Source: Escherichia coli
GTDB taxonomy: Bacteria; Pseudomonadota; Gammaproteobacteria; Enterobacterales; Enterobacteriaceae
Assembly: GCF_030384885.1 (NCBI RefSeq)
Contig: NZ_CP128613.1
Reading direction: 5' to 3' (one strand)
DNA: 64,000 nucleotides
Made by a program: the position numbers and the translations under genes. Shown here piece after piece: positions 13,660 to 50,998 of the stretch; position 1 is the stretch's first letter, and every line of letters begins with the position of its first letter. A model generated the notes under the pieces. That model searched no databases. It saw only the letters and a program-made list of their open reading frames with translations, and was not told the DNA's origin.

Positions 13660-13683
13660 ATGCGCCAGGATGCAGAGGTAATC

Positions 13684-16083: not shown

Positions 16084-16094
16084 CAAATCCCTCT

Positions 16095-16120
16095 CGCCCG
16101 CACTCGCGGGTTTTCTTTTA
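16095..16120 (+). terminator. Rho-independent terminator after dosP
   Basis: Stem CCCGC-ACTC-GCGGG followed by TTTTCTTTT. Confidence 0.65.
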
Positions 16121-16340
16121 ACGTGACACTGTCACTTAAATACTGTGATTTCAGCTACGATTCCGGGAGATTCCTTCCTTAACTTCCCCTCTTGCACCAA
16201 AACTGCACTACGCTGCACAAATGTTGATCAAAAGTTAAAAAATATAACTTTAAGCCAGCATTCTGGCGCTTATCCCGGCATGGCATGAGATCTGCATAAG
16301 CGGAAAGCGCAGCAATTTTTGTCTTATACAGGAACCGTTT

Positions 16341-16922
16341 ATGTCGGATACCACCGAACTGGTTGATTTAGCCGTGATCTTCCCTGATCTGGAGATCGAA
16401 TTGAAATACGCCTGCGCTGATAACATCACAGGTAAAGCTATTTATCAGCAAGCGCGTTGTCTGTTACACAAGGATGCGATTACCGCGCTGGCGAAAAGTA
16501 TCAGTATCGCCCAGCTGTCAGGCTTACAACTGGTGATTTACGATGCGTATCGCCCACAACAAGCACAGGCGATGTTGTGGCAAACCTGCCCAGACCCGCA
16601 ATATGTTGTTGATGTGACGGTCGGTTCTAATCACAGCCGTGGCACGGCGATCGACCTGACGCTTCGTGATGAGCACGGGAACATCCTCGATATGGGCGCA
16701 GAGTTCGATGAAATGCACGAACGTTCCCATGCTTACCATCCTTCCGTCCCGCCCGCCGCTCAGCGCAATCGCCTGTTGCTGAATGCGATTATGACTGGCG
16801 GTGGCTTTGTCGGTATCCCGAGCGAATGGTGGCACTTCGAATTACCCCAGGCAGCGAGTTACCCACTACTCGCTGATCAATTCACCTGTTTTATATCCCC
16901 TGGCACACAGCACGCCAGTTAA
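16341..16922 (+). CDS. ddpX: D-alanyl-D-alanine dipeptidase (193 aa)
   Basis: VanX-like zinc dipeptidase; matches remembered DdpX; first gene of the ddp operon. Confidence 0.9.
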   Translation: MSDTTELVDLAVIFPDLEIELKYACADNITGKAIYQQARCLLHKDAITALAKSISIAQLSGLQLVIYDAYRPQQAQAMLWQTCPDPQYVVDVTVGSNHSRGTAIDLTLRDEHGNILDMGAEFDEMHERSHAYHPSVPPAAQRNRLLLNAIMTGGGFVGIPSEWWHFELPQAASYPLLADQFTCFISPGTQHAS

Positions 16923-16935
16923 TCAGGAAACTGTC

Positions 16936-18486
16936 ATGAATAGATCGATTTCGTTTCGTCCTACATTGCTCGCGATCGTCCTTGCCACAACAATGCCGGT
17001 TGCGCACGCCGCCGTACCGAAAGATATGCTGGTGATCGGTAAAGCTGCCGACCCACAAACCCTCGACCCGGCGGTAACAATTGATAATAACGACTGGACA
17101 GTGACCTACCCGTCTTATCAGCGACTGGTTCAGTACAAAACGGACGGTGATAAAGGCTCAACAGACGTTGAAGGCGATCTGGCGAGTAGCTGGAAAGCGT
17201 CTGACGATCAAAAAGAGTGGACGTTCACCCTGAAGGACAATGCTAAATTTGCCGATGGCACACCCGTCACTGCCGAAGCAGTAAAACTCTCTTTTGAGCG
17301 GTTACTAAAAATCGGTCAGGGGCCAGCAGAAGCATTTCCCAAAGATTTAAAGATTGATGCTCCCGACGAACATACGGTGAGGTTTACCCTTAGCCAGCCA
17401 TTCGCACCGTTCCTCTACACGCTGGCGAATGACGGTGCATCCATTATCAATCCGGCGGTCTTAAAAGAACATGCGGCCGATGATGCCCGTGGTTTCCTCG
17501 CGCAAAATACCGCTGGCTCCGGACCGTTTATGCTGAAAAGCTGGCAAAAAGGTCAGCAATTAGTTCTGGTGCCAAATCCGCATTACCCCGGCAATAAACC
17601 GAACTTCAAACGGGTATCGGTAAAAATTATCGGTGAAAGTGCCTCCCGTCGCCTGCAGCTCTCCCGTGGCGACATTGACATTGCCGATGCGCTGCCGGTG
17701 GATCAACTCAACGCCCTGAAGCAGGAAAACAAAGTCAACGTGGCAGAGTATCCGTCACTGCGCGTCACCTATCTGTATCTCAATAACAGCAAAGCGCCAC
17801 TTAATCAGGCGGATCTGCGTCGGGCCATTTCCTGGTCTACCGATTATCAGGGTATGGTTAACGGCATTCTGAGCGGTAACGGAAAACAAATGCGCGGCCC
17901 GATTCCGGAAGGCATGTGGGGATACGATGCGACGGCAATGCAATACAACCATGACGAAACGAAAGCCAAAGCCGAATGGGATAAAGTGACGAGCAAACCC
18001 ACTAGCCTGACGTTTCTCTACTCCGATAACGATCCGAACTGGGAACCTATTGCTCTGGCAACACAATCCAGCCTCAACAAGCTGGGCATCAATGTGAAGC
18101 TGGAAAAGCTGGCGAACGCCACCATGCGCGACAGAGTGGGTAAAGGTGATTACGACATCGCGATTGGCAACTGGAGTCCGGATTTTGCCGACCCGTATAT
18201 GTTTATGAATTACTGGTTTGAGTCCGACAAAAAAGGTCTGCCGGGTAACCGCTCGTTCTATGAAAACAGTGAGGTCGATAAGTTACTGCGCAATGCGCTA
18301 GCGACCACCGACCAGACGCAGCGTACCCGGGACTACCAGCAGGCACAGAAAATCGTCATTGATGACGCTGCTTATGTGTATCTGTTCCAGAAAAACTACC
18401 AACTGGCGATGAACAAAGAGGTGAAAGGCTTTGTGTTCAATCCCATGCTGGAACAGGTCTTCAATATCAATACCATGAGTAAATAA
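16936..18486 (+). CDS. ddpA: D-Ala-D-Ala ABC transporter periplasmic binding protein (516 aa)
   Basis: Begins MNRSISFRPTLLAIVLATTMPVAHA (signal peptide); ORF-track start 16801 is over-extended into ddpX. Confidence 0.9.
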   Translation: MNRSISFRPTLLAIVLATTMPVAHAAVPKDMLVIGKAADPQTLDPAVTIDNNDWTVTYPSYQRLVQYKTDGDKGSTDVEGDLASSWKASDDQKEWTFTLKDNAKFADGTPVTAEAVKLSFERLLKIGQGPAEAFPKDLKIDAPDEHTVRFTLSQPFAPFLYTLANDGASIINPAVLKEHAADDARGFLAQNTAGSGPFMLKSWQKGQQLVLVPNPHYPGNKPNFKRVSVKIIGESASRRLQLSRGDIDIADALPVDQLNALKQENKVNVAEYPSLRVTYLYLNNSKAPLNQADLRRAISWSTDYQGMVNGILSGNGKQMRGPIPEGMWGYDATAMQYNHDETKAKAEWDKVTSKPTSLTFLYSDNDPNWEPIALATQSSLNKLGINVKLEKLANATMRDRVGKGDYDIAIGNWSPDFADPYMFMNYWFESDKKGLPGNRSFYENSEVDKLLRNALATTDQTQRTRDYQQAQKIVIDDAAYVYLFQKNYQLAMNKEVKGFVFNPMLEQVFNINTMSK

Positions 18487-18487
18487 C

Positions 18488-19510
18488 GTGACCTTCTGGA
18501 GTATTTTACGCCAACGCTGCTGGGGGCTGGTGCTCGTGGTGGCGGGCGTCTGTGTGATTACGTTTATTATCTCGCACCTGATCCCCGGCGACCCGGCGCG
18601 GTTACTGGCGGGTGACCGCGCCAGCGATGCTATCGTGGATAATATTCGCCAGCAACTGGGACTGGACCAGCCACTGTACGTACAGTTTTACCGCTACGTC
18701 AGCGACCTGTTTCAGGGTGACCTGGGAACATCCATTCGTACCGGGCGTCCGGTGCTGGAAGAGTTGCGCATATTTTTCCCGGCGACGCTGGAACTGGCAT
18801 TTTGCGCCCTGCTGCTGGCACTCCTGGTTGGTATCCCGCTGGGCATACTCTCTGCAGTCTGGCGAAATCGCTGGCTGGATCATCTGGTGCGAATAATGGC
18901 CATTACCGGAATCTCCACACCTGCGTTCTGGCTTGGGCTGGGCGTCATTGTGCTGTTTTATGGTCATCTGCAAATTCTTCCCGGCGGCGGAAGGCTTGAT
19001 GACTGGCTGGATCCACCAACGCACGTTACCGGCTTTTATCTGCTCGATGCGCTGCTTGAAGGCAACGGTGAAGTCTTCTTCAATGCGCTGCAACATCTCA
19101 TCTTACCGGCATTAACGCTGGCGTTCGTTCACCTGGGGATTGTCGCTCGCCAGATCCGCTCAGCTATGCTGGAACAATTGAGTGAAGACTACATTCGTAC
19201 CGCCCGGGCCAGCGGCTTGCCCGGCTGGTATATCGTTTTATGTTATGCGCTACCCAATGCGTTGATCCCCTCGATTACCGTATTGGGGCTGGCGCTGGGC
19301 GATTTGTTGTATGGCGCAGTGCTCACCGAAACCGTTTTTGCCTGGCCCGGAATGGGTGCATGGGTAGTAACATCAATACAGGCGCTCGACTTCCCGGCAG
19401 TGATGGGCTTTGCCGTCGTGGTTTCATTTGCTTATGTGCTGGTCAACCTGGTGGTGGATTTGCTCTATTTGTGGATTGATCCGCGTATCGGACGTGGAGG
19501 TGATGAATGA
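18488..19510 (+). CDS. ddpB: ABC transporter permease (340 aa), GTG start
   Basis: GTG at 18488, two nt after the ddpA stop; membrane protein of the DppB type. Confidence 0.85.
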   Translation: MTFWSILRQRCWGLVLVVAGVCVITFIISHLIPGDPARLLAGDRASDAIVDNIRQQLGLDQPLYVQFYRYVSDLFQGDLGTSIRTGRPVLEELRIFFPATLELAFCALLLALLVGIPLGILSAVWRNRWLDHLVRIMAITGISTPAFWLGLGVIVLFYGHLQILPGGGRLDDWLDPPTHVTGFYLLDALLEGNGEVFFNALQHLILPALTLAFVHLGIVARQIRSAMLEQLSEDYIRTARASGLPGWYIVLCYALPNALIPSITVLGLALGDLLYGAVLTETVFAWPGMGAWVVTSIQALDFPAVMGFAVVVSFAYVLVNLVVDLLYLWIDPRIGRGGDE

Positions 19511-20403
19511 TGCTAAGCGAGGAAACGTCCGTCGTACGCCCACCAAAACAAACGCGATTTAACGGTGCAAAACTGGTATGGATGCTGAAAGGCAGTCCGC
19601 TCACCGTGACCGGCGCAGTCATCATTGTATTAATGCTATTGATGATGATTTTTTCACCGTGGCTGGCGACGCATGATCCCAACGCCATTGATTTAACTGC
19701 CCGCCTTTTGCCGCCTTCTGCGGCGCACTGGTTTGGCACCGATGAAGTGGGACGCGATCTGTTTAGCCGCGTACTGGTCGGCAGTCAGCAATCAATTCTC
19801 GCCGGATTAGTGGTGGTCGCCATTGCGGGTATGATGGGTTCGCTACTCGGGTGTCTATCCGGTGTGCTTGGCGGACGCGCAGACGCGATCATCATGCGCA
19901 TCATGGACATTATGCTGTCGATTCCTTCGCTGGTGCTGACAATGGCGCTGGCTGCCGCACTTGGACCGAGTTTGTTTAACGCCATGCTGGCGATTGCTAT
20001 CGTGCGAATCCCGTTTTATGTGCGCCTGGCGCGGGGGCAAACATTAGTTGTCCGCCAGTACACTTTCGTTCAGGCGGCGAAAACCTTCGGTGCGTCACGC
20101 TGGCATCTGATCAACTGGCATATTTTACGTAACTCCCTGCCGCCGCTGATTGTGCAGGCATCGCTGGATATTGGTAGCGCGATTTTAATGGCCGCCACGT
20201 TGGGATTTATTGGCCTGGGTGCTCAACAACCGAGTGCTGAATGGGGGGCGATGGTGGCGAATGGTCGCAACTATGTGCTCGATCAATGGTGGTATTGCGC
20301 ATTTCCGGGGGCAGCGATTTTGCTTACCGCCGTCGGGTTCAATCTCTTTGGTGATGGTATTCGCGATCTGCTTGACCCGAAAGCAGGAGGAAAGCAGTCA
20401 TGA
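19507..20403 (+). CDS. ddpC: ABC transporter permease (298 aa)
   Basis: ATGA overlap with the ddpB stop; DppC-type permease. Confidence 0.88.
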   Translation: MMLSEETSVVRPPKQTRFNGAKLVWMLKGSPLTVTGAVIIVLMLLMMIFSPWLATHDPNAIDLTARLLPPSAAHWFGTDEVGRDLFSRVLVGSQQSILAGLVVVAIAGMMGSLLGCLSGVLGGRADAIIMRIMDIMLSIPSLVLTMALAAALGPSLFNAMLAIAIVRIPFYVRLARGQTLVVRQYTFVQAAKTFGASRWHLINWHILRNSLPPLIVQASLDIGSAILMAATLGFIGLGAQQPSAEWGAMVANGRNYVLDQWWYCAFPGAAILLTAVGFNLFGDGIRDLLDPKAGGKQS

Positions 20404-21386
20404 CCCAACCCGTTCTGGACATTCAACAACTGCATTTGAGTTTCTCCGGTTTTAACGGCGACGTTCACGCGCTCAACAATGTGTCATTGAAAATCAACCG
20501 CGGTGAAATTGTCGGTCTGGTGGGAGAATCCGGCTCGGGTAAATCAGTCACTGCAATGTTGATTATGCGTCTGTTACCGACGGGCAGTTATTGCGTACAT
20601 CGGGGACATATTTCACTGCTGGGAGAAGATGCTCTTAACGCTCGGGAAAAACAGCTTCGTCAGTGGCGCGGCGCACGAGTGGCGATGATCTTTCAGGAAC
20701 CGATGACCGCCCTAAATCCGACACGTCGAATAGGTCTTCAGATGATGGACGTGATCCGCCATCATCAACCAATAAGTCGTCGGGAAGCCAGAGCTAAAGC
20801 GATTGCCCTGCTGGAAGAGATGCAAATCCCGGATGCCGTGGAAGTTATGTCGCGCTATCCGTTTGAGCTTTCAGGTGGTATGCGCCAGCGGGTAATGATT
20901 GCGCTGGCATTCTCCTGCGAGCCGCAATTGATTATTGCCGACGAACCGACTACGGCGCTGGACGTCACGGTACAGTTGCAGGTACTGCGTCTGCTTAAAC
21001 ATAAAGCCCGCGCCAGTGGAACTGCGGTACTGTTCATCAGCCATGATATGGCCGTGGTGTCGCAACTGTGCGATAGCGTTTACGTGATGTATGCCGGAAG
21101 CGTGATCGAGAGCGGTATGACGGCAGACGTTATCCATCATCCCCGGCATCCGTATACCATTGGTTTGCTGCAATGCGCACCGGAACATGGAATACCACGC
21201 CAGCCATTACCCGCCATTCCAGGGACGGTACCAAACCTCACCCATTTGCCTGACGGCTGCGCTTTTCGCGATCGTTGCTATGCGGCAGGTACACAGTGTG
21301 AAAACGTCCCGGCGCTGACAGCGTGTGGTGACAACAACCACCGCTGCGCCTGTTGGTATCCTCAGCAGGAGGTCATTAGTGTCTGA
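20400..21386 (+). CDS. ddpD: ABC transporter ATP-binding protein (328 aa)
   Basis: Walker A GESGSGKS, signature LSGGMRQR, Walker B; ATGA overlap with ddpC. Confidence 0.9.
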   Translation: MTQPVLDIQQLHLSFSGFNGDVHALNNVSLKINRGEIVGLVGESGSGKSVTAMLIMRLLPTGSYCVHRGHISLLGEDALNAREKQLRQWRGARVAMIFQEPMTALNPTRRIGLQMMDVIRHHQPISRREARAKAIALLEEMQIPDAVEVMSRYPFELSGGMRQRVMIALAFSCEPQLIIADEPTTALDVTVQLQVLRLLKHKARASGTAVLFISHDMAVVSQLCDSVYVMYAGSVIESGMTADVIHHPRHPYTIGLLQCAPEHGIPRQPLPAIPGTVPNLTHLPDGCAFRDRCYAAGTQCENVPALTACGDNNHRCACWYPQQEVISV

Positions 21387-22305
21387 CACGTTATTAACGT
21401 TACGCGACGTCCATATCAATTTCCCGGCCCGAAAAAACTGGCTTGGTAAAACTACGGAACATGTTCATGCCATCAATGGTATTGATTTACAGATCCGTCG
21501 TGGTGAAACCTTAGGGATCGTCGGTGAGTCAGGCTGCGGCAAAAGCACCCTCGCGCAGCTTTTAATGGGTATGCTGCAACCGAGCCACGGGCAGTACATC
21601 CGTTCAGGATCACAACGCATTATGCAGATGGTGTTTCAGGACCCGCTCTCTTCGCTTAATCCGCGCTTACCGGTGTGGCGCATCATCACGGAACCGCTCT
21701 GGATTGCTAAGCGTAGTAGTGAACAACAGCGGCGAGCGTTGGCAGAGGAGCTGGCTGTGCAGGTGGGTATTCGTCCGGAGTATCTCGACCGCTTGCCTCA
21801 TGCGTTCTCAGGCGGGCAGCGGCAACGTATCGCCATTGCCAGAGCACTCTCTTCGCAGCCTGACGTGATTGTGCTTGATGAGCCCACCTCGGCGCTGGAT
21901 ATCTCCGTGCAGGCGCAGATCCTCAATTTACTGGTAACGCTACAGGAAAATCGCGGGCTGACTTATGTGCTGATTTCACACAATGTCTCGGTGATACGTC
22001 ATATGAGCGATCGGGTGGCGGTGATGTATCTCGGACAGATTGTTGAACTAGGAGACGCGCAACAGGTGCTGACAGCTCCGGCACATCCATACACCAGATT
22101 ATTGCTGGATTCCCTCCCCGCCATTGATAAACCGCTGGAGGAAGAATGGGCATTGCGTAAAACGGAACTACCAGGAAACCGCACGTTGCCGCCGGGCTGT
22201 TTTTTCCGTGAACGTTGCCCTCTGGCAACCCACGGATGTGAAGTCCGGCAATCATTAACAATAAGGGAGGACGGACGTGAGATCCGGTGCTGGCGGGCGC
22301 TGTAG
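21379..22305 (+). CDS. ddpF: ABC transporter ATP-binding protein (308 aa), GTG start
   Basis: Walker A GESGCGKST, signature FSGGQRQR; begins VSDTLLTLRD at GTG 21379, overlapping the ddpD end; ORF-track start 21325 is over-extended. Confidence 0.85.
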   Translation: MSDTLLTLRDVHINFPARKNWLGKTTEHVHAINGIDLQIRRGETLGIVGESGCGKSTLAQLLMGMLQPSHGQYIRSGSQRIMQMVFQDPLSSLNPRLPVWRIITEPLWIAKRSSEQQRRALAEELAVQVGIRPEYLDRLPHAFSGGQRQRIAIARALSSQPDVIVLDEPTSALDISVQAQILNLLVTLQENRGLTYVLISHNVSVIRHMSDRVAVMYLGQIVELGDAQQVLTAPAHPYTRLLLDSLPAIDKPLEEEWALRKTELPGNRTLPPGCFFRERCPLATHGCEVRQSLTIREDGREIRCWRAL

Positions 22306-22342
22306 AGACGCGGCATCCGGCTATTGCATGTCTGTGGAAACG

Positions 22343-23233
22343 TTATGCGTCATAGGTTTTTTTTAACGTTTCCATCAACGCTTGCGCCGCAGTAGAAAGC
22401 TTATGGTGTGACGAACGCAGAACGCCTACCCGTCGCTCAATCACCGGATTATCCAGTTCCAGACACACTGCGCCCAATTCGCTCATCTGCCTGCGGCACA
22501 GTGCAGGCACAGCGCTGCCCCCCAAACCGTTTGCCACCAGCCGCCCAACCGTAACCAGTTGATGGCTTTCCAGCGCCACTTCCAGTTGCGTTCCACTTTG
22601 TGCCAATTCCTCTTCCAGCATCAACCTGACGGCTGACGGTCGCTGGAGGGTGATAAAATCGAGCGTCAGCAAATCCCGCCAGCTCACGCGTTGCCGATTT
22701 GCCAGTCGGGAATCGGCTGGAACAATAGCAACAAACCGATCCACGCCCAGCGGGATAAAATGCAAATGGCCGCAATAGTCAGGTTCAAAGGCAATCCCCA
22801 TCTCCACGCGCCCTTCACTCACCATTTCGATTACCAGCTCATTCACCACATCGTGCACAGTGACGTTAATCCCTGAATAACAATCGCGGAAGGTTTTCAG
22901 CACCGGAGGCAAAACGTTGGCCGCAAATGACGGCATCGCTGCCACTGAGACTTTGCCCCGCCTGAGCGTGAATCGCTGACGCATGGCCTCTTCGGTGTTA
23001 TCCCAGTCAGCCAGCAAAGGCCGTGCCATCGACAATAGCGTTTCCCCCTCCTGGGTTAACGTCACTTTTCGCGTAGTACGCAGCAGTAAAGCGCCCCCTA
23101 AGGCATCTTCCAGTCCTTTAATGGCAAGACTTAGCGCAGGCTGCGACATATTCAGCCGTTCACTGGCATGGGCAAAGTTCAGAGTGTGAGCTACCGCTAA
23201 AAACGCGCGTAACTGTTTGATGCTCATTTTCAT
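22343..23233 (-). CDS. LysR-family transcriptional regulator (296 aa)
   Basis: N-terminal helix-turn-helix of LysR type (MKMSIKQLRAFLAVAHTLNFAHASERL...) plus a substrate-binding domain; transcribed divergently from the CoA-transferase operon. Confidence 0.85.
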   Translation of the reverse strand: MKMSIKQLRAFLAVAHTLNFAHASERLNMSQPALSLAIKGLEDALGGALLLRTTRKVTLTQEGETLLSMARPLLADWDNTEEAMRQRFTLRRGKVSVAAMPSFAANVLPPVLKTFRDCYSGINVTVHDVVNELVIEMVSEGRVEMGIAFEPDYCGHLHFIPLGVDRFVAIVPADSRLANRQRVSWRDLLTLDFITLQRPSAVRLMLEEELAQSGTQLEVALESHQLVTVGRLVANGLGGSAVPALCRRQMSELGAVCLELDNPVIERRVGVLRSSHHKLSTAAQALMETLKKTYDA

Positions 23234-23374
23234 CTGGTATTCCGTTAACTTGTTGAATACATTTAATTAACATTATATTTATAAATAATACAAATGAATG
23301 AGTCACAAATTTAAAATTAACAAATCATTTTTTGCCCTTAATGATGTTGGAAAGGACAACTGGAGGGCAACTGT

Positions 23375-24082
23375 ATGGCTGGGCTGGATAAACGGGTCGC
23401 TACGTATCACGAGGCGCTTGAAGGACTTACCAATGAGATGACGATTCTGGCGGGAGGTTTTGGCCTGTGCGGCATCCCGGAGAATCTGATTGCTGAAGTT
23501 CGCCACCGTGGAGTAACCGCATTGACGGTGGTTTCCAATAACTGTGGCGTAGACGGTTTTGGACTGGGTGTACTGCTGGAAACCCGACAGATCCGTAAAG
23601 TCATCGCTTCTTATGTTGGCGAAAATGCTTTGTTTGAAAAACAGGTGCTTAACGGCGAACTGGAGGCGATTCTCACACCACAAGGAACCCTGGCAGAACA
23701 ACTGCGCGCAGGCGGCGCGGGCATCCCGGCGTTCTTTACTGCCACCGGTTACGGTACACCCGTTGCCGAAGGGAAAGAAGTCCGCGAATTCAACGGTCGC
23801 CCGTACATAATGGAACAGGCTATCACCGGTGATTTTGCCCTGGTCAAAGGCTGGAAAGCCGACTGGTACGGCAACGTGATTTATCGTCATACCGCGCAAA
23901 ACTTCAACCCACTGATGGCGGCTGCCGGAAAAATCACCGTGGTGGAAGTGGAAGAGATTGTGCCGCCTGGTGAACTTGATCCTGCCGCAATCCATACCCC
24001 AGGGATTTTTGTTAATCGCGTCATTCAGGGGCAATTTGAAAAACGCATTGAACAACGCACCCTTAGCCGCAAAGGAGCCTGA
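23375..24082 (+). CDS. 3-oxoacid/acetoacetate CoA-transferase subunit A (235 aa)
   Basis: Family resemblance to AtoD/ScoA ([27 protein letters not shown]); GGAGGG ribosome-binding site. Confidence 0.85.
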
Positions 24083-24084
24083 CC

Positions 24085-24741: not shown

Positions 24742-24750
24742 GGAATCACC

Positions 24751-26869: not shown

Positions 26870-26914
26870 CTTCTCTCGCTGTACCCACTATAACAACGAT
26901 ATTGAGGAGTCCCG

Positions 26915-28306: not shown

Positions 28307-28317
28307 GGAGAATCATC

Positions 28318-28695
28318 ATGAATTTACAAGGTAAAACTGCGCTTGTGACGGGGTCCTCCAGCGGTATTGGACTCGGTATTGCTCAGACACTGGCAAAAGC
28401 CGGCGCGCAAGTGATCCTCAACGGCTTCGGTGATGTTGACGCGGCAATCAATGGAGTTTCTCGTGTGGGTAAAACGCCTGGCTATCATGAGGCAGACCTC
28501 AGCGATGAATCGCAAATTGTCAGCATGATGGCCTACGCACGGAGGGAATTTGGCGGTGTGGACATTCTGGTGAATAACGCCGGGATCCAATTGGAGCTGA
28601 CCAAATGGGTGGAAGCTTCTGATAACGACATCCTCAGTGATATCTACCAGCAAACGATCAATTATGTGGTCAGTGGCCAGCACCCTACGCTTTAA
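28318..28695 (+). pseudogene. Chimeric ORF: N-terminal 92 codons of a short-chain dehydrogenase fused in frame to the last 33 codons of bdm
   Basis: N-terminus has the SDR cofactor motif TGSSSGIGLG and NNAG; from about 28594 the protein reads ELTKWVEASDNDILSDIYQQTINYVVSGQHPTL, identical to the remembered Bdm C-terminus; total length 125 aa against about 250 aa for an SDR. Confidence 0.7.
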
Positions 28696-42860: not shown

Positions 42861-44249
42861 ATGGCACTGCAAAATGAGAAAAATAGTCGTTATCTTTTGC
42901 GCGACTGGAAACCAGAAAACCCGGCCTTCTGGGAAAATAAAGGAAAGCATATTGCACGAAGAAACCTCTGGATATCAGTCAGTTGTCTACTTCTTGCCTT
43001 CTGTGTCTGGATGCTATTTAGCGCAGTTACTGTTAATCTCAATAAAATCGGTTTTAATTTCACTACCGATCAACTCTTTTTATTAACCGCATTACCCTCC
43101 GTTTCTGGCGCATTATTGCGTGTCCCCTACTCCTTTATGGTGCCTATATTTGGTGGACGCCGATGGACGGTTTTTAGTACTGCAATCCTGATTATTCCTT
43201 GCGTCTGGCTCGGAATTGCCGTGCAGAATACGAATACTCCTTTTGGGATATTTATCGTTATCGCTTTGCTATGCGGTTTTGCAGGTGCGAACTTTGCTTC
43301 GAGCATGGGCAATATCAGTTTCTTCTTCCCAAAAGCCAAACAAGGGAGCGCACTTGGGATTAATGGCGGATTAGGAAACTTAGGTGTAAGTGTGATGCAG
43401 CTGGTTGCGCCGCTGGTGATTTTTATCCCCGTATTTGCCTTTCTCGGCGTCAATGGCGTACCACAGGCCGACGGTTCGGTAATGTCGCTGGCGAATGCCG
43501 CATGGATTTGGGTGCCATTACTGGCGATTGCCACTATTGCCGCCTGGTTAGGGATGAATGATATCGCCAGTTCACGCGCGTCAATAGCCGATCAATTGCC
43601 TGTATTACAACGTCTGCATCTCTGGCTGCTCAGTCTTCTCTATCTCGCCACCTTCGGTTCGTTTATCGGTTTTTCTGCGGGTTTTGCCATGCTGGCGAAA
43701 ACCCAGTTCCCGGATGTGAATATTCTGCGTCTGGCGTTCTTTGGCCCATTTATCGGTGCCATCGCGCGGTCGGTTGGTGGTGCTATTTCCGATAAATTTG
43801 GCGGCGTGCGGGTGACGTTGATCAACTTCATTTTTATGGCGATTTTCAGCGCCCTGCTGTTCCTTACCTTACCGGGCACAGGCTCTGGTAATTTCATCGC
43901 ATTTTACGCCGTCTTTATGGGGCTGTTTCTGACCGCGGGTCTGGGAAGTGGTTCTACTTTCCAGATGATCGCCGTCATCTTTCGCCAGATAACGATTTAT
44001 CGCGTCAAGATGAAAGGCGGCAGCGATGAACAGGCTCAGCGGGAAGCGGTCACCGAAACGGCGGCAGCATTGGGCTTTATCTCAGCGATTGGCGCAGTTG
44101 GCGGCTTTTTTATTCCGCAGGCGTTTGGCATGTCGCTCAATATGACCGGCTCGCCGGTAGGTGCGATGAAAGTGTTTTTGATCTTCTACATCGTTTGTGT
44201 GCTGCTGACCTGGCTGGTTTATGGTCGGCGGAAGTTCAGCCAAAAATAA
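42861..44249 (+). CDS. narU: Nitrate/nitrite transporter, MFS (462 aa)
   Basis: Begins MALQNEKNSRYLLRDW; 12-transmembrane NarK family; ORF-track start 42819 is over-extended. Confidence 0.9.
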   Translation: MALQNEKNSRYLLRDWKPENPAFWENKGKHIARRNLWISVSCLLLAFCVWMLFSAVTVNLNKIGFNFTTDQLFLLTALPSVSGALLRVPYSFMVPIFGGRRWTVFSTAILIIPCVWLGIAVQNTNTPFGIFIVIALLCGFAGANFASSMGNISFFFPKAKQGSALGINGGLGNLGVSVMQLVAPLVIFIPVFAFLGVNGVPQADGSVMSLANAAWIWVPLLAIATIAAWLGMNDIASSRASIADQLPVLQRLHLWLLSLLYLATFGSFIGFSAGFAMLAKTQFPDVNILRLAFFGPFIGAIARSVGGAISDKFGGVRVTLINFIFMAIFSALLFLTLPGTGSGNFIAFYAVFMGLFLTAGLGSGSTFQMIAVIFRQITIYRVKMKGGSDEQAQREAVTETAAALGFISAIGAVGGFFIPQAFGMSLNMTGSPVGAMKVFLIFYIVCVLLTWLVYGRRKFSQK

Positions 44250-44344: not shown

Positions 44345-47300
44345 ATGAGTAAACTTTTGGACCGCTTTCGCTACTTCAAACAAAAGGGCGAAACATTTGC
44401 CGATGGTCACGGCCAGGTGATGCATAGCAACCGCGACTGGGAGGACAGCTATCGCCAGCGTTGGCAGTTCGACAAAATCGTGCGTTCCACTCACGGCGTT
44501 AACTGTACAGGCTCCTGTAGCTGGAAAATCTACGTTAAAAATGGCCTGGTGACCTGGGAAATCCAACAGACCGACTACCCGCGCACTCGCCCTGACCTGC
44601 CCAATCATGAACCTCGCGGCTGCCCGCGTGGCGCAAGTTACTCCTGGTATCTTTACAGCGCTAACCGCCTGAAATACCCGCTCATTCGTAAACGACTGAT
44701 TGAACTGTGGCGCGAAGCCCTCAAGAAACACAGCGATCCGGTACTGGCGTGGGCATCGATTATGAACGATCCGCAAAAGTGCCTGAGCTACAAACAAGTG
44801 CGTGGGCGTGGCGGCTTTATCCGCTCCAACTGGCAGGAGCTAAACCAGTTGATTGCCGCCGCTAACGTCTGGACCATCAAAACTTACGGTCCTGATCGCG
44901 TTGCCGGTTTCTCGCCGATTCCGGCGATGTCGATGGTTTCTTACGCCGCCGGAACACGCTATCTGTCGCTGTTAGGTGGCACCTGTTTAAGTTTCTATGA
45001 CTGGTATTGCGACCTGCCGCCTGCCTCGCCGATGACCTGGGGCGAGCAAACCGACGTGCCAGAATCTGCCGACTGGTATAACTCCAGCTATATCATCGCC
45101 TGGGGTTCTAACGTACCGCAAACGCGCACACCAGACGCCCACTTCTTTACCGAAGTACGTTACAAAGGTACCAAAACTATCGCCATTACCCCGGACTACT
45201 CTGAAGTAGCCAAATTGTGCGACCAGTGGCTGGCACCGAAACAAGGCACTGATAGCGCCCTGGCGATGGCAATGGGCCATGTGATTTTAAAAGAGTTCCA
45301 TCTCGATAATTCCAGCGACTATTTTATCAACTACTGCCGCCGCTACAGCGACATGCCGATGCTGGTAATGCTGGAACCTCGCGACGATGGTAGCTACGTT
45401 CCCGGGCGCATGATCCGCGCGTCTGACCTGGTAGATGGGCTGGGCGAAAGCAACAATCCGCAGTGGAAAACCGTAGCAGTTAATACAGCAGGTGAACTGG
45501 TGGTGCCGAACGGTTCGATTGGTTTTCGCTGGGGAGAAAAAGGCAAATGGAATCTGGAATCCATTGCCGCCGGTACGGAAACCGAATTGTCGTTAACTCT
45601 GCTCGGTCAACATGATGCCGTTGCAGGCGTGGCCTTCCCCTACTTTGGCGGCATTGAAAATCCGCATTTTCGCAGCGTAAAACACAATCCGGTCCTGGTG
45701 CGCCAATTGCCCGTTAAAAACCTGACATTAGCCGATGGCAACACCTGTCCGGTCGTCAGCGTTTATGATCTGGTACTGGCAAATTACGGCCTCGATCGCG
45801 GGCTGGAAGATGAAAACAGCGCGAAAGATTACGCTGAAATCAAACCTTACACCCCAGCCTGGGGCGAGCAAATTACCGGCGTACCGCGCCAGTACATTGA
45901 AACCATCGCCCGCGAATTTGCCGATACCGCCCATAAAACGCATGGGCGCTCGATGATTATCCTCGGTGCTGGCGTCAACCATTGGTATCACATGGACATG
46001 AACTACCGTGGGATGATCAACATGCTGATCTTCTGCGGTTGTGTCGGGCAAAGCGGTGGCGGCTGGGCACACTATGTCGGTCAGGAAAAACTGCGCCCGC
46101 AAACCGGCTGGCTGCCTCTGGCCTTTGCACTCGACTGGAACCGACCACCGCGCCAGATGAACAGCACCTCGTTTTTCTACAATCACTCCAGTCAATGGCG
46201 CTATGAAAAAGTCTCTGCTCAGGAGTTACTTTCACCGCTCGCCGATGCCAGTAAGTACAGCGGTCATCTGATTGATTTCAACGTTCGCGCCGAACGTATG
46301 GGCTGGCTACCTTCTGCGCCGCAACTGGGGCGTAACCCGCTCGGGATTAAAGCTGAAGCCGACAAGGCCGGATTATCCCCCACAGAATTAACCGCCCAGG
46401 CGCTGAAATCGGGCGATTTACGCATGGCCTGCGAACAACCCGATAGCGGCAGCAATCATCCGCGTAATTTGTTTGTCTGGCGCTCTAACCTGCTTGGCTC
46501 CTCCGGCAAAGGCCACGAATATATGCAGAAGTATCTGCTGGGAACCGAAAGTGGGATTCAGGGTGAGGAACTCGGTGCCAGCGACGGGATCAAACCAGAA
46601 GAAGTCGAGTGGCAAACTGCGGCGATTGAAGGCAAGCTCGACCTGCTGGTGACGCTCGACTTCCGTATGTCCAGTACCTGCCTGTTCTCCGATATCGTTC
46701 TGCCCACCGCCACCTGGTACGAAAAAGACGATATGAATACCTCAGATATGCATCCGTTTATTCATCCACTTTCTGCGGCGGTCGATCCGGCGTGGGAATC
46801 ACGCAGCGACTGGGAAATCTACAAAGGTATTGCCAAAGCATTTTCGCAAGTGTGCGTAGGGCATCTTGGCAAAGAAACCGACGTGGTATTACAACCCCTA
46901 CTGCATGACTCTCCGGCAGAACTCTCCCAGCCGTGTGAAGTGCTCGACTGGCGCAAAGGCGAATGCGATCTGATCCCGGGTAAAACCGCGCCCAATATTG
47001 TAGCGGTGGAACGCGACTACCCTGCTACCTATGATCGCTTTACCTCGCTCGGGCCATTGATGGACAAACTTGGCAACGGCGGTAAAGGGATTTCGTGGAA
47101 TACCCAGGATGAAATCGATTTCCTCGGCAAACTCAATTACACCAAGCGTGATGGCCCGGCACAGGGGCGACCGCTGATTGACACCGCCATTGATGCATCA
47201 GAAGTGATACTGGCGCTGGCACCGGAAACCAACGGTCATGTTGCAGTCAAAGCGTGGCAGGCGCTGGGCGAGATCACCGGACGCGAACATACCCATCTGG

Positions 47301-48085
47301 CGCTGCACAAAGAGGACGAAAAGATCCGCTTTCGCGATATTCAGGCGCAGCCGCGTAAAATTATCTCCAGCCCCACATGGTCCGGTCTGGAAAGCGATCA
47401 CGTCTCCTACAACGCCGGATACACCAACGTTCATGAGTTAATTCCGTGGCGCACGCTGTCGGGGCGCCAGCAGGTCTATCAGGATCATCCGTGGATGCGT
47501 GCCTTTGGTGAAAGCCTGGTGGCTTATCGTCCGCCTATCGACACGCGCAGCGTCAGCGAAATGCGCCAGATACCACCAAACGGCTTCCCGGAAAGAGCAC
47601 TTAACTTCCTGACGCCGCATCAGAAATGGGGCATTCACTCAACCTACAGTGAAAACCTGCTAATGCTGACGCTCTCTCGCGGTGGACCGATTGTCTGGAT
47701 CAGCGAAACCGATGCCCGTGAATTGACCATTGTCGATAACGACTGGGTGGAAGTGTTTAACGCCAACGGCGCGCTGACTGCCCGCGCGGTGGTCAGCCAA
47801 CGTGTACCGCCGGGTATGACCATGATGTATCACGCTCAGGAACGCATTATGAATATTCCTGGTTCGGAAGTAACCGGCATGCGCGGCGGCATTCATAACT
47901 CGGTCACCCGCGTTTGTCCGAAACCAACGCATATGATTGGCGGTTACGCGCAGCTGGCCTGGGGCTTTAACTACTACGGCACCGTCGGCTCGAACCGCGA
48001 CGAATTCATCATGATCCGCAAGATGAAGAACGTTAACTGGTTGGATGATGAAGGTCGCGATCAGGTACAGGAGGCGAAAAAATGA
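44345..48085 (+). CDS. narZ: Respiratory nitrate reductase 2 alpha subunit (1246 aa)
   Basis: Begins MSKLLDRFRYFKQKGETF; molybdopterin oxidoreductase; ORF-track start 44288 is over-extended. Confidence 0.92.
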   Translation: MSKLLDRFRYFKQKGETFADGHGQVMHSNRDWEDSYRQRWQFDKIVRSTHGVNCTGSCSWKIYVKNGLVTWEIQQTDYPRTRPDLPNHEPRGCPRGASYSWYLYSANRLKYPLIRKRLIELWREALKKHSDPVLAWASIMNDPQKCLSYKQVRGRGGFIRSNWQELNQLIAAANVWTIKTYGPDRVAGFSPIPAMSMVSYAAGTRYLSLLGGTCLSFYDWYCDLPPASPMTWGEQTDVPESADWYNSSYIIAWGSNVPQTRTPDAHFFTEVRYKGTKTIAITPDYSEVAKLCDQWLAPKQGTDSALAMAMGHVILKEFHLDNSSDYFINYCRRYSDMPMLVMLEPRDDGSYVPGRMIRASDLVDGLGESNNPQWKTVAVNTAGELVVPNGSIGFRWGEKGKWNLESIAAGTETELSLTLLGQHDAVAGVAFPYFGGIENPHFRSVKHNPVLVRQLPVKNLTLADGNTCPVVSVYDLVLANYGLDRGLEDENSAKDYAEIKPYTPAWGEQITGVPRQYIETIAREFADTAHKTHGRSMIILGAGVNHWYHMDMNYRGMINMLIFCGCVGQSGGGWAHYVGQEKLRPQTGWLPLAFALDWNRPPRQMNSTSFFYNHSSQWRYEKVSAQELLSPLADASKYSGHLIDFNVRAERMGWLPSAPQLGRNPLGIKAEADKAGLSPTELTAQALKSGDLRMACEQPDSGSNHPRNLFVWRSNLLGSSGKGHEYMQKYLLGTESGIQGEELGASDGIKPEEVEWQTAAIEGKLDLLVTLDFRMSSTCLFSDIVLPTATWYEKDDMNTSDMHPFIHPLSAAVDPAWESRSDWEIYKGIAKAFSQVCVGHLGKETDVVLQPLLHDSPAELSQPCEVLDWRKGECDLIPGKTAPNIVAVERDYPATYDRFTSLGPLMDKLGNGGKGISWNTQDEIDFLGKLNYTKRDGPAQGRPLIDTAIDASEVILALAPETNGHVAVKAWQALGEITGREHTHLALHKEDEKIRFRDIQAQPRKIISSPTWSGLESDHVSYNAGYTNVHELIPWRTLSGRQQVYQDHPWMRAFGESLVAYRPPIDTRSVSEMRQIPPNGFPERALNFLTPHQKWGIHSTYSENLLMLTLSRGGPIVWISETDARELTIVDNDWVEVFNANGALTARAVVSQRVPPGMTMMYHAQERIMNIPGSEVTGMRGGIHNSVTRVCPKPTHMIGGYAQLAWGFNYYGTVGSNRDEFIMIRKMKNVNWLDDEGRDQVQEAKK

Positions 48086-49626
48086 AAATACGTTCGCAAG
48101 TCGGCATGGTGCTTAACCTCGATAAATGTATCGGCTGCCATACCTGTTCGGTGACCTGTAAAAACGTCTGGACCGGACGCGAAGGCATGGAGTACGCATG
48201 GTTTAACAACGTCGAAACCAAACCGGGCATTGGTTATCCGAAAAACTGGGAAGATCAGGAAGAGTGGCAAGGCGGCTGGGTGCGTGATGTGAATGGCAAG
48301 ATACGCCCGCGTCTGGGCAGCAAGATGGGGGTGATTACCAAAATCTTCGCCAACCCGGTGGTGCCGCAGATTGACGATTACTACGAACCTTTCACCTTCG
48401 ACTACGAACATTTGCATAGCGCGCCAGAAGGTAAACACATTCCTACTGCCCGCCCACGTTCGCTGATTGACGGCAAACGGATGGACAAAGTGATCTGGGG
48501 GCCAAACTGGGAAGAATTGTTGGGCGGCGAATTCGAAAAACGCGCCCGTGACCGCAACTTCGAGGCCATGCAAAAGGAGATGTACGGGCAGTTTGAAAAC
48601 ACCTTCATGATGTACCTGCCGCGCCTGTGCGAACACTGCCTCAATCCCAGTTGCGTGGCGACCTGCCCAAGCGGCGCTATCTACAAACGCGAAGAAGACG
48701 GCATTGTGCTGATCGATCAGGATAAATGCCGTGGCTGGCGTTTGTGCATTAGCGGTTGTCCGTACAAAAAAATCTACTTCAACTGGAAAAGCGGCAAGTC
48801 AGAAAAATGCATCTTCTGTTACCCACGAATTGAGTCAGGCCAACCCACCGTGTGCTCAGAAACCTGCGTGGGTCGCATCCGGTATCTGGGCGTGCTGCTT
48901 TACGACGCCGACAGCATCGAGGAAGCGGCGAGCACCGAGCGCGAAGTTGACCTCTATGAACGCCAGTGCGAAGTGTTCCTCGATCCGCACGATCCCTCAG
49001 TGATCGAAGAAGCCCTGAAACAAGGTATTCCACAAAACGTGATTGAAGCTGCCCAGCGTTCGCCAGTCTACAAAATGGCGATGGACTGGAAACTGGCGCT
49101 ACCGCTGCACCCTGAATATCGCACCCTGCCGATGGTCTGGTACGTACCGCCGCTGTCACCAATTCAGTCTTACGCCGATGCGGGCGGCCTGCCAAAAAGC
49201 GAAGGTGTGCTTCCCGCTATCGAAAGCCTACGTATACCGGTGCAATATCTCGCCAATATGTTGAGTGCGGGCGATACCGGTCCGGTGCTGCGGGCACTAA
49301 AACGGATGATGGCGATGCGCCACTATATGCGTTCACAAACCGTGGAAGGCGTTACCGATACCCGCGCCATTGACGAAGTAGGCCTGAGCGTCGCCCAGGT
49401 CGAAGAGATGTATCGCTACCTTGCCATCGCCAACTATGAAGATCGTTTTGTCATTCCAACCAGTCATCGGGAAATGGCGGGCGATGCCTTCGCAGAACGC
49501 AACGGCTGCGGCTTCAGCTTTGGCGACGGTTGCCACGGCTCGGACAGCAAATTCAACCTGTTCAACAGTAGCCGTATCGATGCCATCAACATCACCGAAG
49601 TGCGCGACAAAGCGGAGGGCGAATAA
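48082..49626 (+). CDS. narY: Nitrate reductase 2 beta subunit, Fe-S (514 aa)
   Basis: Cys-cluster ferredoxin motifs; ATGA overlap with narZ. Confidence 0.92.
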   Translation: MKIRSQVGMVLNLDKCIGCHTCSVTCKNVWTGREGMEYAWFNNVETKPGIGYPKNWEDQEEWQGGWVRDVNGKIRPRLGSKMGVITKIFANPVVPQIDDYYEPFTFDYEHLHSAPEGKHIPTARPRSLIDGKRMDKVIWGPNWEELLGGEFEKRARDRNFEAMQKEMYGQFENTFMMYLPRLCEHCLNPSCVATCPSGAIYKREEDGIVLIDQDKCRGWRLCISGCPYKKIYFNWKSGKSEKCIFCYPRIESGQPTVCSETCVGRIRYLGVLLYDADSIEEAASTEREVDLYERQCEVFLDPHDPSVIEEALKQGIPQNVIEAAQRSPVYKMAMDWKLALPLHPEYRTLPMVWYVPPLSPIQSYADAGGLPKSEGVLPAIESLRIPVQYLANMLSAGDTGPVLRALKRMMAMRHYMRSQTVEGVTDTRAIDEVGLSVAQVEEMYRYLAIANYEDRFVIPTSHREMAGDAFAERNGCGFSFGDGCHGSDSKFNLFNSSRIDAINITEVRDKAEGE

Positions 49627-50321
49627 TGCAGATCCTCAAAGTGATCGGCCTGTTGATGGAGTATCCGGACGAGCTGTTGTGGGAATGTAAGGAGGACGCG
49701 CTGGCGTTGATCCGCCGCGACGCGTCGATGCTCACCGATTTTGCACTCGACCTGCTCAACGCGCCGCTGCTGGATAAACAGGCCGAATGGTGTGAAGTGT
49801 TCGACCGCGGGCGCACCACGTCGCTGCTGCTGTTCGAACATGTTCATGCCGAATCCCGCGATCGAGGCCAGGCAATGGTGGACCTGCTGGCGGAGTATGA
49901 AAAGGTCGGTCTGCAACTGGATTGTCGGGAACTGCCTGATTATCTGCCGCTGTACCTGGAGTACTTAAGTGTGCTGCCGGACGATCAGGCAAAAGAAGGA
50001 TTACTCAACGTTGCGCCGATCCTCGCCCTGCTTGGCGGACGCTTAAAACAACGCGAGACACCGTGGTACGCGTTATTTGACGCCCTTTTGCAACTGGCAG
50101 GAAGTCCCCTGTCAAGTGACAGTGTCACAAAACAAATTCGTAGTGAAGAGCGTGACGACACCCGCCAGGCGCTGGATGCGGTGTGGGAAGAAGAACAGGT
50201 GAAGTTTATTGAAGATAACGCCACGGCGTGTGACAGCTCGCCGCTTAATCAATATCAGCGACGCTTTAGCCAGGATGTCGCGCCGCAGTACGTCGACATC
50301 AGTGCGGGAGGTGGGAAATGA
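49626..50321 (+). CDS. narW: Nitrate reductase 2 assembly chaperone (231 aa)
   Basis: NarJ-like; TAATG overlap with narY. Confidence 0.9.
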
Positions 50322-50998
50322 TTCAGTATCTGAACGTCTTTTTTTACGATATCTACCCGTACATTTGTGCGACCGTGTTTTTCCTTGGCAGCTGGCTGCG
50401 CTATGACTACGGGCAGTACACCTGGCGCGCCTCCTCGAGCCAGATGCTCGATAAACGCGGGATGGTGATATGGTCGAATCTGTTCCATATCGGCATTCTG
50501 GGGATCTTCTTCGGTCATCTGTTCGGCATGTTAACACCGCACTGGATGTACGCGTGGTTTTTACCAGTGGCAGCGAAACAACTGATGGCAATGGTGCTCG
50601 GCGGTATTTGCGGCGTGTTGACGTTGATTGGCGGTGCAGGACTGCTGTGGCGCAGGCTGACAAATCAGCGTGTGCGTGCTACTTCCACCACGCCGGATAT
50701 CATCATCATGAGCATATTGCTGATCCAATGTTTGTTGGGGCTAAGTACCATACCGTTTTCAGCACAGTATCCTGATGGTAGCGAAATGATGAAGCTGGTG
50801 GGTTGGGCGCAAAGCATTGTCACTTTCCGTGGAGGATCGTCAGAAATGCTTAACGGCGTAGCGTTCGTCTTCCGCCTGCATCTGGTATTGGGAATGACCA
50901 TCTTCCTGCTCTTTCCGTTCACCCGACTGGTGCATGTGTGGAGCGCGCCTTTTGAGTACTTTACTCGTCGGTACCAGATTGTGCGCTCGCGGCGATAA
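50318..50998 (+). CDS. narV: Nitrate reductase 2 gamma subunit, cytochrome b (226 aa)
   Basis: Five transmembrane helices; ATGA overlap with narW. Confidence 0.9.

What the first reader, a model, noticed from the sequence alone, without database searches (positions are those of the whole stretch)
16936..22305. Non-ATG starts and four-base overlaps indicate translational coupling in the ddp and narZYWV operons
ddpB and ddpF appear to start at GTG, and ddpB/ddpC, ddpC/ddpD, narZ/narY and narW/narV share ATGA overlaps. Several ORF-track starts are over-extended as a result. This matters for anyone re-annotating the region.
Basis: seen in the sequence. Interest (0 to 1): 0.15.

Follow-up and report, generated by a model that had tools for sequence, protein, structure and literature searches.

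The report
Overlapping gene starts in two operons
The GTG starts and four-base stop/start overlaps in the E. coli ddp and narZYWV operons are real, but they match the reference annotation and published lists of overlapping genes, so the finding is correct and ordinary.

Summary
The window is E. coli chromosome, the K-12 b1463-b1488 region in reverse orientation.

- **Starts:** ddpB starts at GTG 18488 and ddpF at GTG 21379.
- **ATGA overlaps:** ddpB/ddpC 19507-19510, ddpC/ddpD 20400-20403, narZ/narY 48082-48085 and narW/narV 50318-50321.
- **Other junctions:** ddpD/ddpF overlap by 8 nt (GTGTCTGA), narY/narW by 1 nt (TAATG), and ddpA/ddpB are 1 nt apart.
- **Over-long mechanical ORFs:** ddpA (16801), ddpF (21325), narZ (44288) and narU (42819).

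The K-12 reference and the PGAP annotations of two close strains give the same gene models. In 37 ddp operons from other genera, the window's two GTGs sit where the orthologs have ATG, or within a codon or two of it in the most distant ones. The upstream extensions are unconserved and often closed by stop codons.

Six of the seven internal starts have strong Shine-Dalgarno sites inside the upstream gene. ddpB has none.

Translational coupling, mainly by termination-reinitiation, is the likely mechanism. This is inferred by analogy and has not been shown for these operons.

A published table already lists all these K-12 distances, so nothing here is new.

One small aside: Escherichia alone has lost the hairpin-plus-SD spacer between ddpA and ddpB.

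The parts
16341..16922 (+). ddpX (D-Ala-D-Ala dipeptidase), first gene of the ddpXABCDF operon
   Evidence: PGAP annotation of a 99.6% identical strain, K-12 b1488, ATG start with TAA stop.
16936..18486 (+). ddpA, substrate-binding protein. True start is ATG 16936, 13 nt after the ddpX stop. The mechanical ORF start GTG 16801 is over-extended.
   Evidence: Pfam SBP_bac_5. The N-terminus MNRSISFRPTLLAIVLATTMPVAHA reads as a signal peptide (sequence reading). In orthologs the upstream frame is often open for only 12-36 nt.
18484..18490 (+). ddpA/ddpB junction TAA-c-GTG. The spacer is 1 nt and there is no Shine-Dalgarno site (-2.2 kcal/mol).
   Evidence: Identical in K-12 and in 6 E. coli genomes sampled across the identity ranking. 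All 37 non-Escherichia orthologs have a 22-191 nt spacer, most with a hairpin, then an SD and a start codon (ATG in 36, TTG in 1).
18488..19510 (+). ddpB, permease, GTG start
   Evidence: The frame opens only 9 nt upstream. Orthologs have ATG at the same codon and a conserved N-terminus, M-T/S-F-W-S-I-L-R-Q-R-C-W-G-L. Pfam BPD_transp_1_N aligns residues 7-78 to profile positions 5-76.
19507..19510 (+). ATGA overlap of the ddpB stop and ddpC start. The SD GGAGGTGAT lies at 19496-19504. A second in-frame ATG at 19510 would give a 1-nt overlap instead.
   Evidence: The distance is -4 in 17 of 21 close orthologs.
19507..20403 (+). ddpC, permease
   Evidence: Pfam OppC_N and BPD_transp_1.
20400..20403 (+). 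ATGA overlap of the ddpC stop and ddpD start. The SD AGGAGG lies at 20385-20390.
   Evidence: The distance is -4 in 11 and -1 in 9 of 21 close orthologs.
20400..21386 (+). ddpD, ATPase
   Evidence: Pfam ABC_tran and oligo_HPY.
21379..21386 (+). GTGTCTGA: ddpF start GTG 8 nt inside ddpD (stop TGA 21384-21386). The SD AGGAGG lies at 21367-21372 (-11.0 kcal/mol).
   Evidence: The same -8 geometry with ATG is present in 21 of 21 close orthologs. GTG is present in all 9 E. coli sequences checked.
21379..22305 (+). ddpF, ATPase, GTG start. The mechanical ORF start 21325 is over-extended.
42861..44249 (+). narU, nitrate/nitrite transporter, upstream of narZ. The mechanical ORF start TTG 42819 is over-extended.
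44345..48085 (+). narZ, nitrate reductase Z alpha subunit, ATG start with SD AGGAG at 44333-44337. The mechanical ORF start GTG 44288 is over-extended.
   Evidence: The N-terminus MSKLLDRFRYFKQKGETF matches NarG MSKFLDRFRYFKQKGETF, and the upstream frames of narZ and narG are not similar.
48082..48085 (+). ATGA overlap of the narZ stop and narY start. The SD AGGAGG lies at 48069-48074.
   Evidence: The same -4 distance is found at narG/narH in K-12.
48082..49626 (+). narY, beta subunit
   Evidence: 78% identical to NarH, with an identical N-terminus.
49624..49628 (+). TAATG, a 1-nt overlap of the narY stop and narW start. The SD GGAGGG lies at 49614-49619.
49626..50321 (+). narW, NarJ-type assembly chaperone
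50318..50321 (+). ATGA overlap of the narW stop and narV start. The SD GGGAGGTG lies at 50306-50313 (-11.6 kcal/mol).
50318..50998 (+). narV, gamma subunit

Best explanation
These are the ordinary, correctly annotated ddpXABCDF and narZYWV operons of E. coli. The true starts are ddpA ATG 16936, ddpB GTG 18488, ddpC ATG 19507, ddpD ATG 20400, ddpF GTG 21379, narZ ATG 44345, narY ATG 48082, narW ATG 49626 and narV ATG 50318. Every cistron from ddpB to ddpF and from narY to narV starts within -8 to +1 nt of the preceding stop codon.

The likely mechanism is inferred, not shown. A ribosome terminating on the upstream cistron, or its 30S subunit, stays on the mRNA and reinitiates at the adjacent start. 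At six junctions a strong Shine-Dalgarno site inside the 3' end of the upstream gene would help this. Subunit synthesis of the ABC transporter and of nitrate reductase Z would then be tied together.

ddpB is the case most dependent on coupling, because it has GTG, no SD, and sits 1 nt after the ddpA stop. The strong SDs at the other junctions also allow some independent initiation, so coupling need not be absolute.
For: **Geometry.** Read directly from the sequence.

**Annotation.** The gene models are identical in K-12 NC_000913.3 and in the PGAP annotations of two close strains. K-12 also has GTG for ddpB and ddpF.

**Orthologs.**
- In 21 close ddp loci, ddpD/ddpF is -8 in 21 of 21, ddpB/ddpC is -4 in 17 of 21, and ddpC/ddpD is -4 or -1 in 20 of 21.
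- In the distant loci, 16-17 of 16-17 have an in-frame start within -8..+6 at each of those three junctions.
- N-terminal peptides are conserved from the window's GTG positions onward and not before them.

**Protein families.** The Pfam N-terminal permease domain reaches to within about 2 residues of the ddpB GTG.

**Shine-Dalgarno strength.** Energies of -10.0 to -11.6 kcal/mol at six starts fall in the top 0.1-0.5% of start-like triplets. The over-extended starts score +0.9 to -1.7.

**Paralog.** narGHJI keeps -4/-4/-1 junctions and the same N-termini at 56-79% identity.

**Literature.**
- -4, -1 and -8 are the commonest distances in E. coli. Coupling falls off steeply beyond about 20 nt (PMC10666635).
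- 4 of 5 native E. coli ATGA pairs tested were coupled (PMC6728339).
- ddpXABCDF is treated as one operon (PMC8743547).
Against: - I found no experiment on coupling in these operons.
- Strong and partly accessible SDs at ddpC, narY and narW would allow de novo initiation. The predicted mean unpaired probability over -15..+3 is 0.48-0.77 there.
- One of the five tested E. coli ATGA pairs, bioBF, initiated de novo (PMC6728339).
- Predicted local RNA structure does not consistently mask the start regions, so the RNA-unfolding form of coupling gets no clear support.
- ddpF mRNA rose only 2.2-fold when ddpX rose 104.5-fold. Transcript-level polarity therefore also shapes expression along the operon (PMC8743547).
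Confidence: 0.8

Rival explanations
1. The overlaps are only a by-product of genome compaction or of start/stop codon turnover. Each downstream cistron is translated independently from its own strong Shine-Dalgarno site, with no functional coupling.
For: - Six junction starts have SDs of -10.0 to -11.6 kcal/mol.
- Several of these start regions are predicted to be accessible.
- The exact overlap type flips between -4, -1, +1 and +2 among orthologs, and between narZYWV and narGHJI. The precise overlap itself is therefore not conserved.
- bioBF initiates de novo despite its ATGA overlap (PMC6728339).
Against: - ddpB has no usable SD, a GTG start, and lies 1 nt after a stop codon.
- Tight spacing within -8..+6 is kept at three ddp junctions in nearly all 38 operons, while the ddpA/ddpB and ddpX/ddpA distances vary freely. 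This argues for selection on proximity.
- A ribosome terminating at the stop codon physically occupies the adjacent start, so independent loading cannot be fully independent (PMC12548453).
- 4 of 5 tested E. coli pairs were coupled.
Confidence: 0.15
2. The longer mechanical ORFs are the real genes: ddpA from 16801, ddpF from 21325, narZ from 44288. The proteins would then carry N-terminal extensions.
For: The frames are open, and a GTG is present at each of those positions.
Against: - These starts have no SD (+0.9 to -1.7 kcal/mol).
- In orthologs the same frames are closed by stop codons or are unconserved. The ddpA frame is open for only 12-36 nt in many. For ddpF, stop codons lie within 18 codons upstream in Citrobacter, Pantoea and Erwinia.
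- The narG upstream frame has a stop codon 17 codons up and shows no similarity to the narZ extension.
- A 45-residue extension would bury the ddpA signal peptide.
- The reference annotations use the short forms.
Confidence: 0.02
3. ddpB really starts downstream, at GTG 18530, 18536 or 18539, behind the G-rich run GGGGG. The GTG at 18488 would not be used.
For: The duplex energy for GGGGG with the anti-SD is -8.4 kcal/mol, against -2.2 for the site upstream of 18488.
Against: - The 14 residues before 18530 (TFWSILRQRCWGL) are conserved at the protein level across Enterobacterales, and all those orthologs have ATG at the 18488 position.
- The Pfam BPD_transp_1_N domain starts at residue 7.
- A start at 18530 would remove part of the first transmembrane segment (inference from the sequence).
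Confidence: 0.03

Closest known systems
E. coli K-12 ddpXABCDF (b1488-b1483), reference annotation NC_000913.3
   Same: Gene order, gene lengths, GTG starts of ddpB and ddpF, and junction distances +13, +1, -4, -4 and -8 are all identical. The region is 95-99% identical in DNA to most E. coli genomes that carry it.
   Different: There are only point differences, such as the last codons of ddpD just upstream of the ddpF start. In the window a LysR/CoA-transferase/hydroxybutyrate cluster follows ddpF, where K-12 has osmC directly.
E. coli K-12 narZYWV (b1468-b1465) and its paralog narGHJI (b1224-b1227)
   Same: narZYWV has the same distances, -4, -1 and -4. narGHJI has the same N-termini and tight junctions at 56-79% protein identity.
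   Different: narGHJI has -4, -4, -1, so the second and third junction types are swapped.
Overlapping unidirectional gene pairs coupled by termination-reinitiation (Huber et al. 2019 PMC6728339; 2023 PMC10666635). [quoted passage not shown]
   Same: - The stop/start distances are ATGA (-4), -1 and -8.
- An SD lies inside the upstream gene.
- The genes encode subunits of heteromeric complexes.
- The supplementary table of the 2023 paper lists exactly these K-12 ddp and nar pairs with these distances.
   Different: The ddp and nar pairs were catalogued but not tested experimentally. ddpB lacks an SD and uses GTG.
Opp/Dpp-type peptide ABC transporter operons (SBP, two permeases, two ATPases)
   Same: The domain content and gene order match: SBP_bac_5, then BPD_transp_1 twice, then ABC_tran plus oligo_HPY twice. 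In all non-Escherichia ddp orthologs a hairpin-bearing spacer follows the binding-protein gene.
   Different: In Escherichia that spacer is deleted down to 1 nt.

Membership tests
Stop/start-overlapping gene pair able to couple by termination-reinitiation | Co-directional neighbours with a stop-to-start distance of about -8 to +6 nt | tested here: met
   The distances are +1, -4, -4, -8 in ddp and -4, -1, -4 in nar. The range criterion comes from PMC10666635.
Stop/start-overlapping gene pair able to couple by termination-reinitiation | Both genes lie on one transcript | not testable with these tools
   The literature treats ddpXABCDF as one operon under the ddpX promoter (PMC8743547). There is no transcript data for this strain. 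Overlapping genes leave no room for a promoter or terminator between them (inference).
Stop/start-overlapping gene pair able to couple by termination-reinitiation | A Shine-Dalgarno motif in the 3' end of the upstream gene (usual in E. coli but not obligatory) | tested here: met
   The feature is met at 6 of 7 junctions, with energies of -10.0 to -11.6 kcal/mol. It is not met at ddpB (-2.2).
Stop/start-overlapping gene pair able to couple by termination-reinitiation | Downstream translation depends on upstream translation reaching the junction | not testable with these tools
   This needs reporter or ribosome-profiling experiments. I found none in the literature searches.
ddpXABCDF D,D-dipeptide operon | A VanX-type dipeptidase gene followed by an SBP, two permeases and two ATPases of the Opp/Dpp type, syntenic with K-12 | tested here: met
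   Annotation of near-identical genomes, K-12 synteny, Pfam domains.
NarGHJI-type respiratory nitrate reductase operon (narZYWV) | Alpha, beta, chaperone and gamma genes in that order, homologous to NarG/H/J/I | tested here: met
   Global identities to K-12 NarGHJI are 79%, 78%, 56% and 72%. Annotation.

The most novel reading that the evidence does not exclude
The only mildly new point concerns the ddpA/ddpB junction. The Escherichia lineage deleted the whole intercistronic spacer (hairpin, Shine-Dalgarno site and ATG) that all 37 other ddp operons examined retain between ddpA and ddpB. What remains is TAA-c-GTG with no SD. E. coli ddpB would then be a natural case of obligate, SD-independent reinitiation at a GTG. 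Alternatively, it could be an early step in functional decay of the transporter, which is absent from about a fifth of complete E. coli genomes.
Probability: 0.35. Interest if true: 0.2.

Novelty: already known. Interest (0 to 1): 0.06.

Why it matters
It matters very little. The starts and overlaps are already in the K-12 reference and in the PGAP annotations examined here. The pair distances are tabulated in a published genome-wide study of translational coupling.

The check does confirm that the mechanical ORF list over-calls four or more N-termini in this window, and that the short forms are right.

The Escherichia-specific loss of the ddpA-ddpB spacer could serve as a natural test case for SD-less reinitiation at a GTG. 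It is a footnote rather than a discovery.

Tried and rejected
1. **Longer N-termini for ddpA, ddpF, narZ and narU.** Rejected on SD scores and on ortholog and paralog comparison.
2. **Downstream ddpB starts at 18530-18539.** Rejected on N-terminal conservation and Pfam coverage.
3. **RNA-unfolding form of coupling.** I computed the MFE and the unpaired probability of the -15..+3 region for 110-nt windows at every junction, against random windows from the same operons. There was no consistent masking. ddpB, ddpC and narY are open, while ddpF, ddpD and narV are somewhat paired. The result is inconclusive and was not used.
4. **Literature searches for direct experiments** on ddp or narZYWV translation, starts or coupling. 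I found none.
5. **Population check of the two GTG codons.** Six E. coli genomes spread across the identity ranking, plus K-12 and one close strain, all have GTG. This is a sample, not a census.
6. **Searches not run.** I did not run the large protein-database, metagenome or structure searches. The single genome-contig scan already gave 38 orthologous operons with DNA. The published table covers NarG-NarH and NarH-NarJ distances in about 350 genomes.
Full report
**What the region is.** The window is E. coli chromosome. Positions 16000-23000 match 5,410 of 5,426 complete E. coli genomes, the best at 99.6%. PGAP annotation of that strain gives ddpX, ddpA, ddpB, ddpC, ddpD and ddpF in the + orientation. 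The K-12 reference has the same genes, b1488 to b1483, on the opposite strand. narU and narZYWV lie at 42861-50998 on the + strand. The finding's coordinates, 16936-22305, run from the ddpA start to the ddpF stop. Its nar claims refer to 44345-50998.

**Checking the observation.** I read every junction base by base and recomputed them by script.

| Junction | Sequence and coordinates | Distance |
|---|---|---|
| ddpX/ddpA | TAA 16920-16922, ATG 16936 | +13 |
| ddpA/ddpB | TAA 18484-18486, c, GTG 18488 | +1 |
| ddpB/ddpC | ATGA 19507-19510 | -4 |
| ddpC/ddpD | ATGA 20400-20403 | -4 |
| ddpD/ddpF | GTGTCTGA 21379-21386 | -8 |
| narZ/narY | ATGA 48082-48085 | -4 |
| narY/narW | TAATG 49624-49628 | -1 |
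| narW/narV | ATGA 50318-50321 | -4 |

There are two refinements:
- ddpF overlaps ddpD by 8 nt rather than 4.
- ddpC opens with a tandem ATGATG. The second ATG at 19510 would give a 1-nt overlap. This tandem is conserved in most Enterobacterales.

The mechanical ORF list does over-extend ddpA (16801), ddpF (21325), narZ (44288) and narU (42819). It also over-extends gadB and dosP.

**Are the short starts right?** Four lines of evidence agree.
1. *Annotation.* The K-12 reference and the PGAP annotations of two close strains use exactly these starts. K-12 also has GTG for ddpB and ddpF.
2. *Shine-Dalgarno scores.* The energies are:
   - -10.6 at ddpC, -10.3 at ddpD, -11.0 at ddpF, -10.3 at narY, -10.0 at narW and -11.6 kcal/mol at narV;
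   - -6.9 at narZ and -4.3 at ddpA;
   - +0.9 to -1.7 at the over-extended starts.

   Only 0.5% of the 3,120 start-like triplets on the window's + strand reach -10.
3. *Orthologs.* A scan of one genome per species with DdpC returned 38 loci that carry an orthologous ddp operon.
   - In the 21 close loci, the ddpF start position is ATG with the same 8-nt overlap in 21 of 21.
   - The ddpB start position is ATG in all 20 loci from other genera.
   - Peptides are conserved from those positions onward: MTFWSILRQRCWGL for DdpB and MSDxLLxLxDVHVNFPARKNWLGK for DdpF.
   - The upstream frames are unconserved and contain stop codons in many species.
   - The Pfam N-terminal permease domain aligns DdpB residues 7-78 to profile positions 5-76. 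This excludes the downstream GTGs at 18530-18539, even though a G-run there mimics an SD.
4. *Paralog.* NarZ, NarY, NarW and NarV start at the same residues as K-12 NarG, NarH, NarJ and NarI, at 56-79% identity. The frames upstream of narZ and narG share nothing.

It is not met.

**Is the arrangement more than chance?** All seven internal junctions lie within -8..+1 nt. Genome-wide, 707 of 2,987 unidirectional E. coli pairs (24%) lie within -8..+6, and -4, -1 and -8 are the three commonest distances (PMC10666635).

The tightness is conserved across orthologs. At ddpB/C, C/D and D/F, every close locus and 16-17 of the 16-17 distant loci have an in-frame start within -8..+6 of the upstream stop. 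The ddpX/A and ddpA/B distances, by contrast, range from -4 to +224 and from +22 to +191.

The exact overlap type does change: -4, -1, +1 or +2 among ddp orthologs, and -4/-1/-4 in narZYWV against -4/-4/-1 in narGHJI. What appears to be conserved is proximity, not the ATGA tetranucleotide itself.

**Mechanism.** The following is inferred rather than shown.
- By analogy with tested E. coli pairs, the geometry supports translational coupling. Four of five native ATGA pairs were coupled. Coupling collapses once stop and start are about 20 nt apart (PMC6728339; PMC10666635).
- The two current models are RNA unfolding and reinitiation by the same 30S or 70S ribosome (PMC12548453).
- My folding of 110-nt junction windows found no consistent masking of the start regions. 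I therefore favour termination-reinitiation assisted by the intragenic SDs.
- Some independent initiation is likely at the strong, accessible SDs.
- ddpB is the clearest candidate for obligate coupling, with GTG, no SD, and 1 nt after the ddpA stop.
- I found no experiment on these operons.

**Comparison with what is known.** Everything matches the reference annotation. The supplementary table of Huber et al. 2023 lists the K-12 pairs explicitly:
- narW/narV -4, narY/narW -1, narZ/narY -4;
- ddpD/ddpF -8, ddpC/ddpD -4, ddpB/ddpC -4, ddpA/ddpB +1.

That paper's COG-pair tables also list the NarG-NarH and NarH-NarJ pairs, with what appear to be short typical distances in about 350 genomes. The finding is therefore already known. 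It is a correct reading of the sequence with no new content.

**One small aside.** In every non-Escherichia ortholog, ddpA is followed by a spacer of 22-191 nt. This spacer usually holds a GC-rich hairpin, about -20 kcal/mol in Citrobacter and Pantoea. A Shine-Dalgarno site and the ATG of ddpB follow. In Escherichia the whole spacer is gone and the start is GTG.

ddpF is GTG in all nine E. coli sequences I looked at. It is ATG in a divergent genome labelled E. coli (L005, 91-97% protein identity) and in all other Enterobacterales.

**Verdict.** Novelty: already known. Interest is very low.

Noticed in passing
window 18484-18490; loci L006-L041 at the ddpA/ddpB junction: Escherichia has lost the ddpA-ddpB intercistronic spacer. 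All 37 other orthologous operons keep 22-191 nt there, usually with a GC-rich hairpin followed by an SD and ATG. Escherichia has TAA-c-GTG with no SD.
   Followed up: partly
window 21379-21381; L005 6873: The ddpF start codon is GTG in all 9 E. coli sequences examined. It is ATG in a divergent genome labelled E. coli (L005) and in every other Enterobacterales ortholog. The ATG-to-GTG change therefore looks recent.
   Followed up: partly
window 28591/28592: The window lacks 1,418 bp that are present in its closest relatives, whose flanks are otherwise 99-100% identical. The missing stretch covers the 3' part of the 3-hydroxybutyrate dehydrogenase gene, all of osmC and the 5' part of bdm. There is no obvious repeat at the breakpoints.
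   Followed up: partly
window 59980 and 60984: Two more stretches are missing compared with strain 2013C-4282, which is 99.7-100% identical across the aligned segments of 40000-64000. About 2.5 kb is missing inside the Rhs core protein gene and about 1.9 kb across vgrG. This could be real deletion or collapse of repeats in assembly.
   Followed up: no
window 22343-28591: A LysR regulator plus a cluster of CoA-transferase A and B, thiolase, 3-hydroxyacyl-CoA dehydrogenase, GntP permease and 3-hydroxybutyrate dehydrogenase lies between ddpF and osmC/maeA. This cluster is absent from K-12 at that position.
   Followed up: no
window 18400-21460, across the E. coli genome collection; L091: The ddpB-ddpD core is missing from 1,134 of 5,426 complete E. 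coli genomes. In strain EC596 an IS1 element replaces the stretch from mid-dosC to the end of ddpD. In strain EC974 ddpA is frameshifted. The operon looks dispensable and is eroding in places.
   Followed up: partly
By K-12 homology, fdnH/fdnI overlap by 8 nt. The thiolase and hydroxyacyl-CoA dehydrogenase genes overlap by 11 nt. The dosC stop TAG is followed directly by an in-frame-open ATG at 13660, although the accepted dosP start is 13684 (SD -7.1 against -3.3).
   Followed up: partly
window 36735-36737 (- strand): fdnG appears as two mechanical ORFs of 195 aa and 803 aa, split by an in-frame TGA. From my own knowledge, this fits the known selenocysteine codon 196 of formate dehydrogenase-N.
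   Followed up: no
window 54898-57758 (- strand): By homology to strain 2013C-4282, an ISAs1-family transposase gene and a group II intron reverse transcriptase/maturase (ltrA) lie next to the Rhs/VgrG region.
   Followed up: no
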